From contig NW_019218372.1 of the NCBI RefSeq assembly GCF_002571385.2, positions 89,728 to 153,727 of the forward strand: a stretch of DNA of 64,000 bases, written 5' to 3'. The stretch comes from Stylophora pistillata (taxonomy: Eukaryota). Positions 1 through 5,700 of this stretch are shown here, in pieces; position 1 is the stretch's first letter, and each line of letters starts with the position of its first letter. The position numbers were made by a program.

Positions 1-2696
1 CTTTTAAGGGAGTTTTTACACAGGGATAACCTCTTAACTTCCTTTTCTAGAAGTATTTTCTTTTTAGTTTTATTTGTATATAATAGTTATCATCTGCTTC
101 TGGAATAAATAAAGTATGTATGTATGTATGTATGTAATTCGCCTGAGATTGTTCATTGACTTTTAGAATCGAGAAGTCGGGTTTGTGATTGACCTATAAT
201 GCTTTGTTTTCCTTTCTCCAACAAGTGTTTACTTTTCTACCACTATAAATTATAAAACAAGGCTTTGATGGTAATAAACCATCAAAACTTTATTATGATA
301 TACCCGTTTCTACATTAACACTTCTTTATTTTTGTATTTAGGCTGATAGAAAGATCTTACTGTAAAAGGGAACAAGGCATGACTGACATGCACAAGGAGA
401 TAATTAATTGTCAAAAAGAAGCTATCGTGAAAGATCTCGAGGTGACAAAAATACTTAAGAAGCTTATGACAAAGAGAATTTTTGATGAAAAAGATAAAAA
501 GGCGATAGAAAAGAAGACTAACGACCGTCTCAGGAGTAGCAAATTGCTGGATATACTACTTGATAAAGTTCCAGATCGATTCAGTGACTTTGTGGACATC
601 TTGTGTGACGGAACTCAAAAGTTTCTTGCCATCGGTCTCCTGAAAGAAGGTAAGTTATCTTATTGTCAGATAACAGTAGTAACTGCGCCTAGAAGGACTG
701 TTTTTGATTGAGATTTTTCTTTCATGAGAATCTCATTTTACTCAATTTACAGTACTTACAAGCACATACTTTTTCCAGAGAGCAAAGAATACCAAAAGGA
801 GAAAGACGCATTATGGTCGTTCTTGAATGAGATGGCTGAAGCAAGAAAGGAAATTTATGAAAGAAAATATGAGCTAGAGCTGGAATTAAAGGGTGCTCAT
901 GAAAAGATAGGTAAATGCACAACAAGTTTATTGTAGAAAAAGACCCGTAAGACATAATCTGGCTGGTATATTGCTTGGTATATTGTTTGTAGATATATAT
1001 ATTTATAACCAACTGCAGACAGTACCGTTTCGGCCTTCTGGGCCTTATCAGTGCAGTGCTGATGCTAGGATGGGGTAGAACCCATATGGTTACTCCGAAC
1101 GATCCCACATTTGTGGTATCGTCTAAGCCATGCCAGAGTGCTCAAACTAGGGAAGCCTAGTAAGCTATACTTGGGAGGTTTGCTAAGCACTCTAAGCACT
1201 CAAGAAGTTAGAGTCGCTCTCGGCTATCGCCTCGAGCGACTCTTACGCTTCTTTCGTGCTTAGCAACCTCCCGCGTGCATCCATATCTCAATAGTGTACG
1301 CTGTGGTGTTTACCATTTGTTAAATGGTGTCACGTAATTTATCGGCTATCGTCGAAACATAGGAGTTAAAATAATTAGCCATTTCCAAAGGGTCTTCCAC
1401 GTCATGTCCGTCAATTTTGTAACCAATTTTGCAGCCAAGATTGCACAAGAATCGCCTTATTCTGCTTAGCGACTGGTCTTCAAACGAACAATAAACTTTT
1501 CAAGTTGACCAATCAGATGTAACGTTAATTTAATTGCCTCATTCTGACTGCCCATTTGACACATGCGGGTTTTCTTTCTTCTGAGCTATTTCTTGACTGC
1601 TGTGATTACTCTGAGATTAGTTACCAAAGACTCTATCGAAATACGTATTGTTTCTTAAAAAAATAACTTCGGTGTCGTTTTTAATCTACAGGAGCACCTT
1701 TGAGGAGTATTTCTGTTCAAACCATTCACAGAATAAACGCCTCTGACTCGGGGTTCACTTTAGGAGAACAGCCGACTTTTTTAAAGTTCAAAGGCCCAAC
1801 TTTGAAACTAGAACACGACTTTATACAAATCAATGCTGAGTTCTCCAACGGAATGATTCAAAAGGATTTTCATGCACAAGTTGTCCCGAAGCAAGAGGTA
1901 TTGCAACGAACTGCTTCCCAGAGAACTGGTTTACCCTTCAATGTCATAATCTTGGCGTTAGATCAGACATCACAGGCAACTTTCCAACGTCTCCTACCAG
2001 AATCGTTCAAGTTTCTTCGCGATGAGCTCCAATCGTTTATTTTCGAGGGATTTTCTCTCGTGGGAGAGGCGACCACACCCCAACTCACAGCGCTATTAAC
2101 TGGGAAGACTGTGGAGGAGAACTGTAAATTACACGAAGCACGAATTGGATTCGACAACGCTAAGTCTTTAGACGAGTGGCCCTTCATTTTCAACACCTTC
2201 AAGGAGCATGGGTATGCTACAATGTTTAGCGAAGATGCACCATCAATTGGTAAGGCGTCTTTATCTTTTCACAACTTTTTGTGATTAATTAAATTTCAAA
2301 CAAATGAGTGGCAGCAGGAAGATATGGCTCACTTTCAATCCTTAACTTCAGCCGATTGATAGAGAGGTTCAGAAATGTCTACTTGGGTCAAATAATCTAG
2401 AATCGATCTCCCTAAAAGTCCAAAGGGTTCCTGGTTCCTGTTCGAGATAACTCAGGGTTGCTATTAAACGGGATTTGATCACTAGATCTTAAAAACCATT
2501 CTCGAACTATCAGTGTCAACAAAATCTACTCTACATTGATTAAAGAATTTTCTGAATGCTCGGATATTTTCCCCAAAATTTCCCCTTCCCATTCAGTCAA
2601 GAAGTACACCGTATTCTACAGAAATCCACAATTAATATAATCTCTTATCAATATATAGATCTTATTTGACGTTTTATTGTGTAGTATCACTGAGTG

Positions 2697-2729
<33 letters not shown>

Positions 2730-5700
2730 GTAGGGCGAGTCAAAATACAAATAACTAGTAAAAATACTCAGCGATACTACACAACAAAACGTCTAATAAG
2801 TTATTTATTATCCAACACGCCAAACTGTTATTTCAGTGCGGGCGAATTTCGTGGATATTGATTTACGGGGAGTGCGTGACAGAAGTATGCGAAGCGGAAA
2901 GGAATTGGCGATAAATGAAGAAATTTCCAAGTGGTCTAGCTGTTTTTCTTCGTTGTATTCATCTAACAAACTTGGATGTATATTTGCCAACCATTCTGAC
3001 TCTTCGTCGTCGGAAATATGATTCAAATTGTCTGCCATTTCTTTTTCGTAACTACAATTCAACTCTTCGCTTGCACGATGCGAGAAAACCTGTTTAACCG
3101 GTACTCTAGTGTACAAATACCGCGTGATATTTGTACTCATGTATGGCGTTACTTATACTCTAGGAAGTGTACTTGGATAATAAATTCTGATATGATACAC
3201 TTTGCCTTTCAGCAACTTTTAACATGAGACTCAAAGGTTTCAACAAACCACCCGCGGATCACTACGCGCGGCCCTTTTGGTCAGCGGTGCCGCACAACTC
3301 TGACAGTGGACTTCATGCCTTCTGTATCAATGCACAACCACAGCACATTATTCAGCTTGAATACCTGAAAAGCCTGTTTAGAGCTTATCCCGGGACACTC
3401 AAGTTTGGATTCACTTTCGTGAGCAGTTTGTGCCATCATGAATCAATCATGCCACTTGGATCAGCTGCTAAAGACTTTTTAAAATTTTTTCAAGCCATCC
3501 GCGATTCTGGATCTTTGAATGATACGTTTTTTGTTGTCATGGGAGACCACGGGGCGAGAACGGGGGAGTTCCGCTCCACAATTCAGGGTAAACTGGAGGA
3601 GCGTTTGCCGCTCCTATCCATTGCACTTCCTTCTAAATTCCATTTTAAGTATCCAGAACTTGTGAAGAATCTCAAGCATAATACAAAAGTCATTACCTCA
3701 CCTTTAGATCTACACGCAACCTTTATGCACTTATTGAAATACCCTGCCGACCCATCGAATTCTGATCTTACCCGAGGGACAAGCCTCTTTTCAGCGATCC
3801 CTCGGAATCGATCCTGCCAAGATGCTATGATTCCCGAGTATTTCTGCCCATGTGTCCAGTGGTTGCCTCTCAATACTACTCATGCGCACATTCGCATAAG
3901 TGCAATGCGCGCCGTCGACTTCATAAATAATTTACTTACGGAGGTTGGTCATCTTTGCGAGGAGCTATCAGTGAATGACATTATAAGTGCATGGCAGGAA
4001 ATGTCCAGCATTAAAGTACAAACTTTTGATGGCATTGAGAACGGGATGGGTTTAGGATTTGGTAAAGCAAACTTTGAATCCACATCGATGCCCAATGAAT
4101 GCACCTATCAGCTTAGATTTCGAACAAAGCCTGGTTACGGAGAATTCGAGACATCGGTTAAAATTATCGACGGGAAATTTATAGTGAGCGAACACATCAG
4201 CCGTATTAATATTTATGGTTCCCAGCCTAACTGCATCAAGGCTTCACACCCGCATCTTAGAAAATATTGTTACTGCAGCCACCAGGGCTGAAAGCTTGTC
4301 TACCTGCAGGTAACAATTGTAGTTTATGTTTAACAAGCTTCTCACTACGTATGATACACGATCCTCGCAGTAGAGAGCGCTATTTATGCAATAGCGAAAA
4401 TCAAACCTGAAAAAAATCAGGCCTGTATGGGATTCGAACCACTGACCTCTGCGATACTAGTGCAGCGCTCTACCAATTGAGCTAACAAGCCAACTGGGAG
4501 CAGGCCGTTAAGTTGATTCGTAATAAACCCGTGAAAGTGATAAATGAGTAGAGCGCTGCACTAGTATCGCAGAGGTCAGTGGTTCGAGTCCCGTACAGGC
4601 CTGATTTTTTTCAGGTCTGATTTTCGCTATTGCTTAAATAGCGCTATCTACTGCGAGGATCGTGCATCATACGTATCAAATACCGCAGTTCAAAATATAT
4701 GATTTTCATATATTTATTCTATCTCATTTATCACTTTCACGGGTTCATTACGAATCAACTTAACGGCCTGCTCTCAGTTGGCTTGTTAGCTCAATTGGTA
4801 AGAGCGCTGCACTAGTATCGCAGAGGTCAGTGGTTCGAGTCCCGTACAGGCCTGATTTTTTTCAGGTCTGATTTTCGCTATTGCTTAAATAGCGCTATCT
4901 ACTGCGAGGATCGTGCATCATACGTATCAAATACCGCAGTTCAAAATATATGATTTTCATATATTTATTCTATCTCATTTATCACTTTCACGGGTTCATT
5001 ACGAATCAACTTAACGGCCTGCTCTCAGTTGGCTTGTTAGCTCAATTGGTAAGAGCGCTGCACTAGTATCGCAGAGGTCAGTGGTTCGAGTCCCGTACAG
5101 GCCTGATTTTTTTCAGGTCTGATTTTCGCTATTGCTTAAATAGCGCTATCTACTGCGAGGATCGTGCATCATACGTATGAACATCATTCCTTTGGCACAG
5201 TAAGAGACGTTTCAATTTTAAAGTAGACTAATAAACGAGAGGCCAAGTCTCAGTTTGAAGGTTAATTAAGACTAATGAGAAATCACTTCTAGGAGGAAAC
5301 TCGCCACTTTTCAGTATGAGCTTTTGTTTTGATGTATTGTTCACATGCATTTTCCACACTTATTTAAACAGATTTAATGGAAGTCGGTAATTTTCAAATT
5401 CAATAATATGTCACAATAATAGCTAAGCATTGATTGTATTACCACTATCAATCCCCCAATATTTGGATGGAACACCTGCAATGAAAACTATGTGACGTAC
5501 TAAAAAAAAACCCCTTAACTCAATGTCCATCACCCATTCAGTAGGAAACTGCCCTTCTAGCTAAGTACCTTCCTCGAAGTAATTTCTCCGTGGCGCTGAA
5601 AGTTTTCTGGGTTTATCTGCCATTAGCCACAGGTAAGGAAGATCTCTCTTTTTTATTGGTCAACATGACTTAATTTTTTCCTTTTTTCCATCGCCAATCT

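What the first reader, a model, noticed from the sequence alone, without database searches (positions are those of the whole stretch)
342..4291. CARD-coiled-coil fused in frame to a DUF229 phosphoesterase-like enzyme: candidate new death-fold effector
Seen: four exons joined by three phase-1 GT-AG introns give an uninterrupted 679-aa ORF (CARD, ~44-aa coiled coil, full DUF229). No signal peptide or TM segment is visible. Putative AlkP-superfamily metal/nucleophile positions are retained (LD, T of GEATT, CHH, GDHG). Known: DUF229 proteins are usually N-terminally anchored secretory-pathway proteins, whereas CARDs nucleate cytosolic signalling filaments, and phase-1 shuffling of death folds is common in cnidarian immune genes. 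Inference: the membrane-anchor exon was replaced by a CARD, producing a cytosolic, oligomerisation-recruited phosphoesterase/transferase. I know no characterised example. Caveat: the retained C-terminal Cys clusters look like luminal disulfides.
Basis: partly seen in the sequence, partly recalled or inferred. Interest (0 to 1): 0.8.

Follow-up and report, generated by a model that had tools for sequence, protein, structure and literature searches.

The report
Predicted CARD–DUF229 enzyme fusion gene
An invertebrate gene model joins a death-fold CARD adaptor to a DUF229 phosphatase/sulfatase-type enzyme domain that normally travels the secretory route; the parts are real, but the splice that joins them is still only predicted.

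Summary
Four ORF pieces (379-649, 779-910, 1692-2249, 3213-4291) are bounded by three phase-1 GT-AG introns and add up to 679 codons plus a stop. Exon 1 is a CARD (Pfam E 1.3e-9). Exons 3 and 4 are DUF229, profile positions 78-225 and 228-495 of 496. None of the four pieces has a TM-grade hydrophobic segment.

Homology backs only the exon 3/4 junction. The decisive junction, 910/1692, rests on three things: good splice consensus, matching phase, and the lack of any start codon for the DUF229 part. Intron 2 also holds an ATG-led hydrophobic mini-ORF (1563-1644) that could splice in phase to exon 3. Its donor is poor and the intron would be 47 nt. It may be a relic or an alternative version of the ancestral signal-anchor exon.

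A decayed partial copy of exon 4 at 17828-18345 gives dN/dS 0.36, so the enzyme part has been under constraint.

No orthologue or transcript data could be reached. The fusion is the simplest model (about 0.55) but is unproven. If real, it is a new variant of the adaptor-fused-enzyme theme.

The parts
379..649 (+). Exon 1: start codon at 379 and the CARD (protein residues 7-84, window 397-630). The exon may begin at acceptor 341/342. An in-frame TAA lies at 316-318 if the exon is unspliced upstream.
   Evidence: Pfam CARD E 1.3e-9 and CARD_2 E 1.2e-6. Atlas: 30 of 30 hits are CARD sets. Weak PDB sequence matches to BCL10 and Apaf-1 CARDs, E 0.026-0.14. Donor AAG|GTAAGT.
650..778 (+). Intron 1, 129 nt, phase 1, GT-AG.
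   Evidence: Read; contexts printed.
779..910 (+). Exon 2: symmetric 1-1 exon of 44 codons. It is charged (47% DEKR), has no Pro, and shows a modest heptad pattern.
   Evidence: No Pfam family. Heptad a/d positions 8 of 13 hydrophobic, reached by 119 of 5000 shuffles. Donor TAG|GTAAAT, score 6.3.
911..1691 (+). Intron 2, 781 nt, phase 1. This is the unverified junction that makes the fusion. It holds a MITE-like palindrome (1192-1325) and one AATAAA (1490).
   Evidence: None of 8 intron-2 ORFs has a Pfam hit at E<=10. The repeat has a copy at 34068-34199, 97.7% identical. AATAAA position.
1563..1644 (+). ATG-led hydrophobic mini-ORF inside intron 2 (12-residue hydropathy 2.29). A GT at 1645 would give phase 1 and a 47-nt intron to exon 3. 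Candidate relic or alternative signal-anchor first exon.
   Evidence: It is the only 1 of 5 phase-1 ATG..GT candidates in intron 2 that is hydrophobic. Its donor TAC|GTATTG scores -1.95. Such ORFs occur 22 times in 128 kb of strand, so 0.13 are expected in 781 nt.
1692..2249 (+). Exon 3: 35 unmatched residues, then the first half of DUF229. The putative metal-ligand Asp is in LALDQ (D at 1961-1963). The putative Thr nucleophile is in GEATTPQ (T at 2072-2074).
   Evidence: Pfam DUF229 E 9.2e-28, profile 78-225. A sub-piece matches Sulfatase profile 3-95 at E 0.065, not significant. Motif coordinates.
2250..3212 (+). Intron 3, 963 nt, phase 1. It holds a self-complementary palindrome at 2653-2808.
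   Evidence: The DUF229 profile continues 225 to 228 across it. Palindrome.
3213..4291 (+). Exon 4: second half of DUF229 (CHH 3431-3439, GDHG 3542-3553), then about 100 C-terminal residues beyond the Pfam match. Ten Cys. Stop at 4289-4291.
   Evidence: Pfam DUF229 E 2.4e-68, profile 228-495; Sulfatase profile 219-299 at E 2.2e-4, below the cut-off. Atlas hits are DUF229 clusters scoring 0.95-0.98. Cys positions.
17828..18345 (+). Decayed partial copy of exon 4 plus 55 nt of its 3' flank. Used here as the comparison sequence for dN/dS.
   Evidence: blastn: 3619-3953 matches 17828-18161 at 84%, and 4169-4346 matches 18164-18345 at 85%; 215 nt are missing between them. The copy has indels and a stop. 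dN/dS is 0.357 over 144 codons, Fisher p 4e-4.

Best explanation
The locus is one gene. Its mRNA joins a CARD exon and a short charged helical exon in frame to the two exons of a DUF229 domain. DUF229 belongs to the alkaline-phosphatase/sulfatase superfamily, and here it appears to have a Thr nucleophile rather than formylglycine. The product has no signal peptide or anchor, so it would stay in the cytosol.

Inferred mechanism: the CARD docks the enzyme by CARD-CARD contact onto an upstream CARD assembly (Apaf-1-, NLR- or Bcl10-type). The enzyme then acts at that site on a phosphoester or phosphodiester substrate. The logic is the same as for CARD-caspases or RIPK2.

The origin is most likely exon shuffling. 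A phase-1 CARD-helix module took over the phase-1 acceptor of exon 3, which formerly served a signal-anchor exon. A possible remnant of that exon lies at 1563-1644.

Shown: the domains, the phases and the lack of hydrophobic segments. Inferred: the 910/1692 splice, cytosolic location, catalysis, and recruitment through the CARD.
For: - Domains are significant and backed by the Atlas.
- All six splice sites are canonical, with rough donor scores 11.9, 6.3 and 7.8 and pyrimidine-rich acceptors.
- All three introns are phase 1. Direct exon 1 to exon 3 splicing also stays in frame.
- The DUF229 frame opens only at 1685. Its first Met (1853) falls inside the domain match, so it needs an upstream coding exon.
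- Exon 1 and exon 2 both end in good donors, with in-frame stops soon after if unspliced (709-711 and 934-936). The only AATAAA in intron 2 is at 1490.
- DUF229 profile positions 1-77 are absent, as expected if the ancestral 5' exon was lost.
- None of 8 intron-2 ORFs has any Pfam match.
- The enzyme part is under constraint: dN/dS 0.357 over 144 codons against the decayed copy, p 4e-4.
- Lineage-specific fusions of death-like adaptors to enzymes are described for cnidarians and other marine invertebrates (PMC8195603, passages; PMC5094078, passages). Coral caspases with similar catalytic domains differ in having a CARD or not (PMC4715348, passages).
Against: - There is no transcript, orthologue or homology support for junction 910/1692. 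Phase agreement alone is a 1-in-3 event.
- A hydrophobic ATG-led mini-ORF lies just upstream of exon 3 and is phase-compatible. Only 0.13 such ORFs are expected by chance. It could be the real first exon of a separate secretory DUF229 transcript.
- The window starts only 378 nt before the ATG, so a signal-peptide exon upstream of the window cannot be excluded.
- The 11 Cys of the DUF229 part, with clusters at the C-terminus, suit a luminal protein. DUF229 is listed among secreted-protein families in C. elegans, 15 (11) (PMC3534327).
- No Atlas cluster near exon 4 carries a CARD. This is a weak point, because only clusters of 50 or more members are searched.
- Catalytic-site assignment rests on sub-threshold Sulfatase matches and on a recalled sulfatase signature.
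Confidence: 0.55

Rival explanations
1. There are two transcription units. One is a small CARD-plus-helix adaptor gene that ends within intron 2, in a short terminal exon or by intron retention. The other is an ordinary secretory DUF229 gene whose first exon is the hydrophobic mini-ORF at 1563-1644 or lies upstream of the window. On this reading the 679-codon ORF is a by-product of shared phase.
For: - The hydrophobic mini-ORF begins with ATG, has a phase-1 GT, and lies 48 nt from exon 3. Only 0.13 are expected by chance.
- Retained intron 2 would add only 8 codons before a stop (ORF 712-936).
- AATAAA lies at 1490.
- DUF229 has a secretory habit in C. elegans (PMC3534327).
- The enzyme part has 11 Cys.
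- Phase match is only a 1-in-3 coincidence.
Against: - The mini-exon donor is poor (TAC|GTATTG, -1.95) and its intron would be 47 nt.
- A poly(A) site at about 1510 and a promoter for a start at 1563 would have to overlap.
- Both CARD-side exons end in good donors that then have no evident partner.
- No terminal exon is recognisable in intron 2: none of 8 ORFs has a Pfam hit.
Confidence: 0.3
2. One locus gives two isoforms through alternative first exons. An upstream promoter gives the cytosolic CARD-helix-DUF229 form. An internal (or far-upstream) promoter gives a signal-anchored DUF229 through the same phase-1 acceptor at 1692. This is a sub-case of the best explanation, not exclusive of it.
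For: Both candidate 5' ends feed the same acceptor in phase 1. TATAAA strings lie at 244 and 251 upstream of exon 1. The retained Cys pattern would be explained by continued luminal use.
Against: The internal donor is weak and the intron is 47 nt. There are no expression data.
Confidence: 0.15
3. The fusion is transcribed but is a young, functionally inert chimera. The DUF229 domain would be mislocalised to the cytosol, unable to form its disulfides, and on its way to decay.
For: The family is luminal-type with 11 Cys. The locus is rich in TEs and duplications: MITE-like elements in both long introns and a decayed copy of exon 4 about 14 kb away.
Against: All 679 codons are intact, and the candidate catalytic motifs are kept. 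dN/dS of 0.357 for exon 4 against the decayed copy shows past constraint, though it does not date that constraint relative to the fusion.
Confidence: 0.1

Closest known systems
CARD-bearing enzymes recruited by homotypic CARD contacts (initiator caspases such as caspase-9, the kinase RIPK2, RIG-I-like helicases). Recalled general knowledge; the death-fold adaptor logic is summarised in PMC8195603 (passages).
   Same: An N-terminal CARD is followed by a catalytic domain in one chain. Function is presumed to depend on recruitment to a CARD assembly.
   Different: The catalytic domain here is DUF229 of the alkaline-phosphatase/sulfatase superfamily. I found that pairing in no paper: DUF229 (31 papers, most being prefix matches such as DUF2290), PF02995 (1 paper), and 'caspase recruitment domain' with 'alkaline phosphatase superfamily' (0 papers). 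Supplementary tables could not be seen and may list such architectures.
DUF229 (PF02995) proteins of nematodes and arthropods
   Same: Profile match over positions 78-495 of 496. The nearest Atlas clusters are DUF229, from Nematoda and Arthropoda.
   Different: Profile positions 1-77 and any signal peptide or anchor are missing, with a CARD and a helix in their place. The C. elegans family is tabulated among secreted proteins (PMC3534327).
CARD-coiled-coil family (CARD9/10/11/14) and Bcl10 of the CBM complex, present back to cnidarians (PMC5978004 and bioRxiv 10.1101/046789, abstracts in listing)
   Same: A CARD is followed directly by a helical, heptad-like segment. The best PDB sequence match of the CARD is BCL10, but at E 0.026 it is not significant.
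   Different: The helical segment is 44 residues, not hundreds. No CARD9 or CARD11 chain appears among the 15 PDB matches at E<=1. The C-terminus is an enzyme, not a MAGUK or a Ser/Thr-rich tail.
Thr/Ser-nucleophile members of the alkaline-phosphatase superfamily: phosphoethanolamine transferases (BcsG, EptA/B/C) and NPP-type phosphodiesterases
   Same: An Asp, then about 37 residues later a Thr-Thr-Pro in a sulfatase-signature-like context, then GDHG. The correspondence to the sulfatase signature is recalled. A BcsG cluster is the first non-DUF229 Atlas neighbour at 0.88, which the tool rates as a lead only.
   Different: BLASTP against E. coli BcsG and EptB finds nothing (best E 0.33 and 62). 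There is no PDB sequence relative for either half. Those enzymes are membrane-anchored with extracytoplasmic catalytic domains.

Membership tests
CARD (PF00619, death-fold superfamily) | Sequence profile match above the curated cut-off | tested here: met
   38.4 bits against a cut-off of 23.9, E 1.3e-9, profile 2-79 of 85. CARD_2 scores 28.9 against 28.2. Atlas: 30 of 30 hits are CARD sets.
CARD (PF00619, death-fold superfamily) | Six-helix bundle fold | tested here: inconclusive
   The single-sequence AlphaFold2 model has mean pLDDT 48.6. It shows five helices (3-18, 21-31, 37-48, 53-63, 65-78) plus a 3-residue turn. It was too poor for a fold search, and none was run.
CARD (PF00619, death-fold superfamily) | Homotypic CARD-CARD binding or filament formation | not testable with these tools
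   No partner CARD from this organism is available.
DUF229 (PF02995) | Profile match above the cut-off over the conserved region | tested here: met
   97.6 and 231.5 bits against a cut-off of 25. Profile 78-225 and 228-495 of 496, contiguous across intron 3.
DUF229 (PF02995) | N-terminal profile region (positions 1-77) and the signal peptide or anchor usual for the family | tested here: not met
   No match to profile 1-77. The highest 19-residue hydropathy is 0.99 in the four exon pieces. None of 8 intron-2 ORFs matches DUF229 at E<=10.
Alkaline-phosphatase/sulfatase superfamily (catalytically competent member) | Metal-ligand Asp after strand 1, a nucleophile about 37-39 residues later, and a D-H pair (GDHG) | tested here: inconclusive
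   The residues are present (D in LALDQ, T in GEATT 37 residues later, GDHG). The Sulfatase PF00884 alignments that place them are below threshold: E 2.2e-4 at 21.1 bits against 25, and E 0.065. No structure or PDB relative is available.
Type I (formylglycine) sulfatases | C/S-x-P-x-R formylglycine motif | tested here: not met
   The corresponding stretch reads T-T-P-Q-L, with Thr for Cys/Ser and Leu for Arg. The motif definition is recalled.
CARD-CC family (CARD9/10/11/14) | CARD followed by a long coiled coil of several hundred residues | tested here: not met
   The helical exon is 44 codons and is followed directly by DUF229. No CARD9 or CARD11 chain appears among the 15 PDB hits.

The most novel reading that the evidence does not exclude
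One locus makes a cytosolic, CARD-tethered alkaline-phosphatase-superfamily phosphodiesterase or phosphotransferase. The enzyme is pulled onto CARD filaments. There it acts either as a new kind of death-fold effector or as a brake that destroys a phospho-linked signal, as an intracellular counterpart of NPP-type enzymes. The ancestral signal-anchor exon survives in intron 2 as a relic or an alternative first exon, so the locus records, or still uses, the switch from a secreted to a cytosolic enzyme.
Probability: 0.2. Interest if true: 0.75.

Novelty: new variant of a known kind. Interest (0 to 1): 0.45.

Why it matters
Death-fold signalling is known to deliver proteases, kinases and helicases. 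A phosphoesterase or phosphotransferase delivered by a CARD would add a new effector chemistry. It would also give DUF229, a family with no assigned function, its first functional context.

The locus may also show exon shuffling caught in the act. A secretory enzyme would have been re-routed to the cytosol by swapping its leader exon for an adaptor through a shared phase-1 acceptor. If the splice is not real, the finding reduces to two ordinary neighbouring genes.

Tried and rejected
- Structure: single-sequence AlphaFold2 models of exon 1 (pLDDT 48.6) and exon 4 (pLDDT 34.9) were too poor to use, so no fold search was run.
- Complex prediction on two copies of the exon-2 peptide returned 'no answer' (score 0.02). 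It says nothing either way.
- PDB sequence searches found no relative of either DUF229 half. For the CARD they gave only weak BCL10/Apaf-1 matches.
- BLASTP of exon 4 against E. coli BcsG and of exon 3 against E. coli EptB found nothing, so I dropped the plan to place the catalytic residues by alignment.
- The prokaryotic genome scan with exon 4 matched 206 pattern stretches, none of which tblastn confirmed.
- None of 8 intron-2 ORFs and neither of 2 antisense ORFs (722-1141 and 2808-3152, minus strand) had a Pfam hit at E<=10. I therefore found no hidden DUF229 N-terminal exon and no nested gene.
- tblastn of the four exon pieces against the window found no second CARD and no second exon-3-like sequence, only the exon-4 fragment.
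- Alternative acceptor at 751/752 for exon 2: rejected, because its phase (2) does not fit the exon-1 donor (read).
- Literature search for phase-1 shuffling of death folds returned only cardiology papers.
No orthologues, no architecture census and no dN/dS against related species were possible.

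
Full report
**What is in the sequence**

- Exon 1: ATG 379 to 649.
- Exon 2: 779-910.
- Exon 3: 1692-2249.
- Exon 4: 3213-4291, with TGA at 4289-4291.

The lengths 271, 132, 558 and 1079 nt sum to 2040, which is 679 codons plus a stop. 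All three introns (129, 781 and 963 nt) are GT-AG and phase 1. The donors are AAG|GTAAGT, TAG|GTAAAT and TTG|GTAAGG. A rough, recalled metazoan donor matrix scores them 11.9, 6.3 and 7.8. The acceptors follow pyrimidine-rich tracts. The four whole-codon pieces (90, 43, 185 and 358 aa) are free of stops. The split codons read E, G and A.

The joined 679-residue product was not assembled, searched or folded; every search was done exon by exon. This leaves whole-protein signal-peptide prediction and whole-protein architecture searches undone.

**Domains**

Pfam results:
- Exon 1 is a CARD: PF00619 at E 1.3e-9, 38.4 bits against a cut-off of 23.9; CARD_2 at 1.2e-6.
- Exon 2 matches nothing.
- Exon 3 is DUF229, profile 78-225 of 496, E 9.2e-28.
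- Exon 4 is DUF229, profile 228-495, E 2.4e-68.

The profile runs straight across intron 3, so that junction is backed by homology. The Atlas feature search agrees. For exon 1, 30 of 30 hits are CARD sets. For exon 4 the top clusters are DUF229 at 0.95-0.98, from nematodes and arthropods, with the Sulfatase family on 21-30% of members.

PDB sequence searches give only weak CARD matches (BCL10 at E 0.026, Apaf-1 at about 0.1). They give no relative for either DUF229 half.

**No leader**

The highest 19-residue hydropathy mean in any exon piece is 0.99, which is far below a membrane segment. The DUF229 frame opens only at 1685, after a TAA. Its first Met, at 1853, lies inside the Pfam match. The enzyme part therefore cannot start on its own without losing part of the domain. 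DUF229 profile positions 1-77 have no counterpart; only 35 unmatched residues precede the match.

**Catalytic motifs**

The Asp and the first Thr of GEATT are 37 residues apart.

The stretch T-T-P-Q-L-T-A-L-L-T-G resembles the sulfatase signature, which I recall as C-x-P-x-R-x-x-L-L-T-G. Here Thr stands for the formylglycine Cys and Leu for the Arg. That argues against a formylglycine sulfatase and for a Thr-nucleophile phosphoesterase or phosphotransferase.

Tool support for the register is weak:
- Sulfatase PF00884 profile 219-299 matches exon 4 at E 2.2e-4, 21.1 bits against a cut-off of 25.
- Sulfatase profile 3-95 matches an exon-3 sub-piece at E 0.065.
- A BcsG cluster is the first non-DUF229 Atlas neighbour at 0.88, which the tool rates as a lead only.
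- BLASTP against E. coli BcsG and EptB found nothing.

**Is the fusion real?**

The junction 910/1692 has no homology support, and I could reach no transcript or orthologue data.

In favour:
- Both CARD-side exons end in good donors. If they are not spliced, in-frame stops follow quickly (709-711 after exon 1, 934-936 after exon 2).
- The next coding sequence on the strand is exon 3, which has a good acceptor in the same phase and no start codon of its own.
- Skipping exon 2 also keeps the frame.
- None of 8 intron-2 ORFs has a Pfam match at E<=10.
- Intron 2 holds only one AATAAA, at 1490.

Against:
- Phase agreement is a 1-in-3 coincidence.
- Intron 2 contains an ATG-led ORF at 1563 whose first 17 residues are strongly hydrophobic (12-residue hydropathy 2.29). 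A GT at 1645 would put it in phase 1 with exon 3.
- ATG-led, 27-codon-open ORFs that hydrophobic occur 22 times in the 128 kb of both strands, so 0.13 are expected in 781 nt of one strand. Chance is therefore possible but not comfortable.
- However, its donor is poor (TAC|GTATTG, -1.95) and the intron would be only 47 nt.

I read this mini-ORF as most likely a relic of the ancestral signal-anchor exon. An active alternative first exon, or a separate DUF229 gene, cannot be excluded.

**Upstream end**

The frame is open from 319 to the ATG at 379, and a good acceptor sits at 341/342. A coding exon upstream of the window is therefore possible. If the exon is unspliced, the TAA at 316-318 makes ATG 379 the first in-frame start. 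TATAAA strings lie at 244 and 251, which is weak evidence in AT-rich DNA.

**Constraint**

A partial copy of exon 4 with 55 nt of its 3' flank lies at 17828-18345. It is 84-85% identical and has a 215-nt gap, small indels and a stop.

In the gene's frame, the two copies give dS 0.294, dN 0.105 and dN/dS 0.357 over 144 codons. Synonymous and non-synonymous rates differ at Fisher p 4e-4. The enzyme part has therefore been under purifying selection in at least one lineage since the duplication. This says nothing about the CARD or about the fusion.

**Exon 2**

It is 47% charged, has no Pro, and has 8 of 13 a/d positions hydrophobic in the best heptad register. That value was reached by 119 of 5000 shuffles. 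It is a plausible amphipathic helix. Coiled-coil formation is not shown.

**Context**

The rest of the window holds the following:
- rhodopsin-type GPCR fragments;
- retroelement remains;
- a CBX-like ORF;
- an intronless BTB-BACK-Kelch ORF;
- a Dicer-like gene;
- tRNA-Thr(AGT)-like repeats.

This is an invertebrate-animal-like gene set, and nothing suggests a human contig. I did not determine the species. A prokaryotic genome scan with exon 4 found no relative.

**Literature**

- DUF229 has no assigned function in the papers I could search. Of 31 papers matching 'DUF229', most are prefix matches such as DUF2290. 'PF02995' occurs in one paper.
- In C. elegans the family is tabulated among large secreted-protein families as 15 (11), with 4 members induced by infection (PMC3534327, passage).
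- No paper holds both 'caspase recruitment domain' and 'alkaline phosphatase superfamily'.
- Lineage-specific fusions of death-like or TIR adaptors to enzymes are described in cnidarians and other marine invertebrates (PMC8195603, passages; PMC5094078, passages).
- CARD presence varies among coral caspases with similar catalytic domains (PMC4715348, passages).
- Supplementary tables, where odd architectures are usually listed, could not be seen.

**Verdict**

Its decisive junction is unverified, and there is a concrete rival: a separate or alternative leader exon. If real, this is a new variant of the known adaptor-fused-enzyme theme, and it would be the first functional handle on DUF229.

Noticed in passing
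17178-18345 (+): The decayed partial copy of exon 4 (17828-18345) lies directly after an ORF (17178-17741) that has a weak match to the C-terminal end of rhodopsin-type GPCRs (7tm_1 profile 197-260, E 3.6e-4, below the cut-off). This looks like a patchwork of gene fragments.
   Followed up: partly
4346-5180; also 13846-13918 and 47033-47177: tRNA-Thr(AGT)-like genes sit in repeated units just downstream of the gene: 4419-4491 (-), 4780-4853 (+) and 5031-5104 (+). A shared flank, 4346-4400, recurs at 4621-4675, 4872-4926, 5123-5177 and 47033-47086. They are either a tRNA gene array or a tRNA-derived repeat family. The exon-4 duplication ends exactly where this repeat begins (4346).
   Followed up: partly
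1192-1325 and 34007-34199; 2653-2808: Both long introns of the gene contain MITE-like palindromic elements. The intron-2 element has a 97.7% identical copy at 34068-34199. The intron-3 element is self-complementary.
   Followed up: partly
43081-44592 and 48661-51279 (+): A Dicer-like gene with very long exons: DEAD/partner-binding domain, platform, PAZ and two RNase III domains. The ORFs 48661-50613 and 50614-51279 are in the same frame and are separated by a single stop at 50611-50613. This could be a short intron, a pseudogene or an assembly error.
   Followed up: no
39049-41013 (+): An intronless 655-aa BTB-BACK-Kelch ORF.
   Followed up: no
6760-7263 and 20951-21352 (+): Two ORFs that each match only the N-terminal part of rhodopsin-type GPCRs (7tm_1 profile 16-107 and 15-105). 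They are probably exons or fragments of duplicated receptor genes.
   Followed up: no
8162-12670: Retroelement remains. Reverse-transcriptase pieces lie on both strands (8162-8677 + and 10331-11290 -), and an integrase-core ORF lies at 11300-12670.
   Followed up: no
722-1141 (-): A 139-codon open frame antisense to exon 2 and the start of intron 2. It has no Pfam match at E<=10. It is long for this AT-rich DNA, but its sequence looks non-protein-like.
   Followed up: partly
23611-23671: A run of 61 N. It was left untouched.
   Followed up: no
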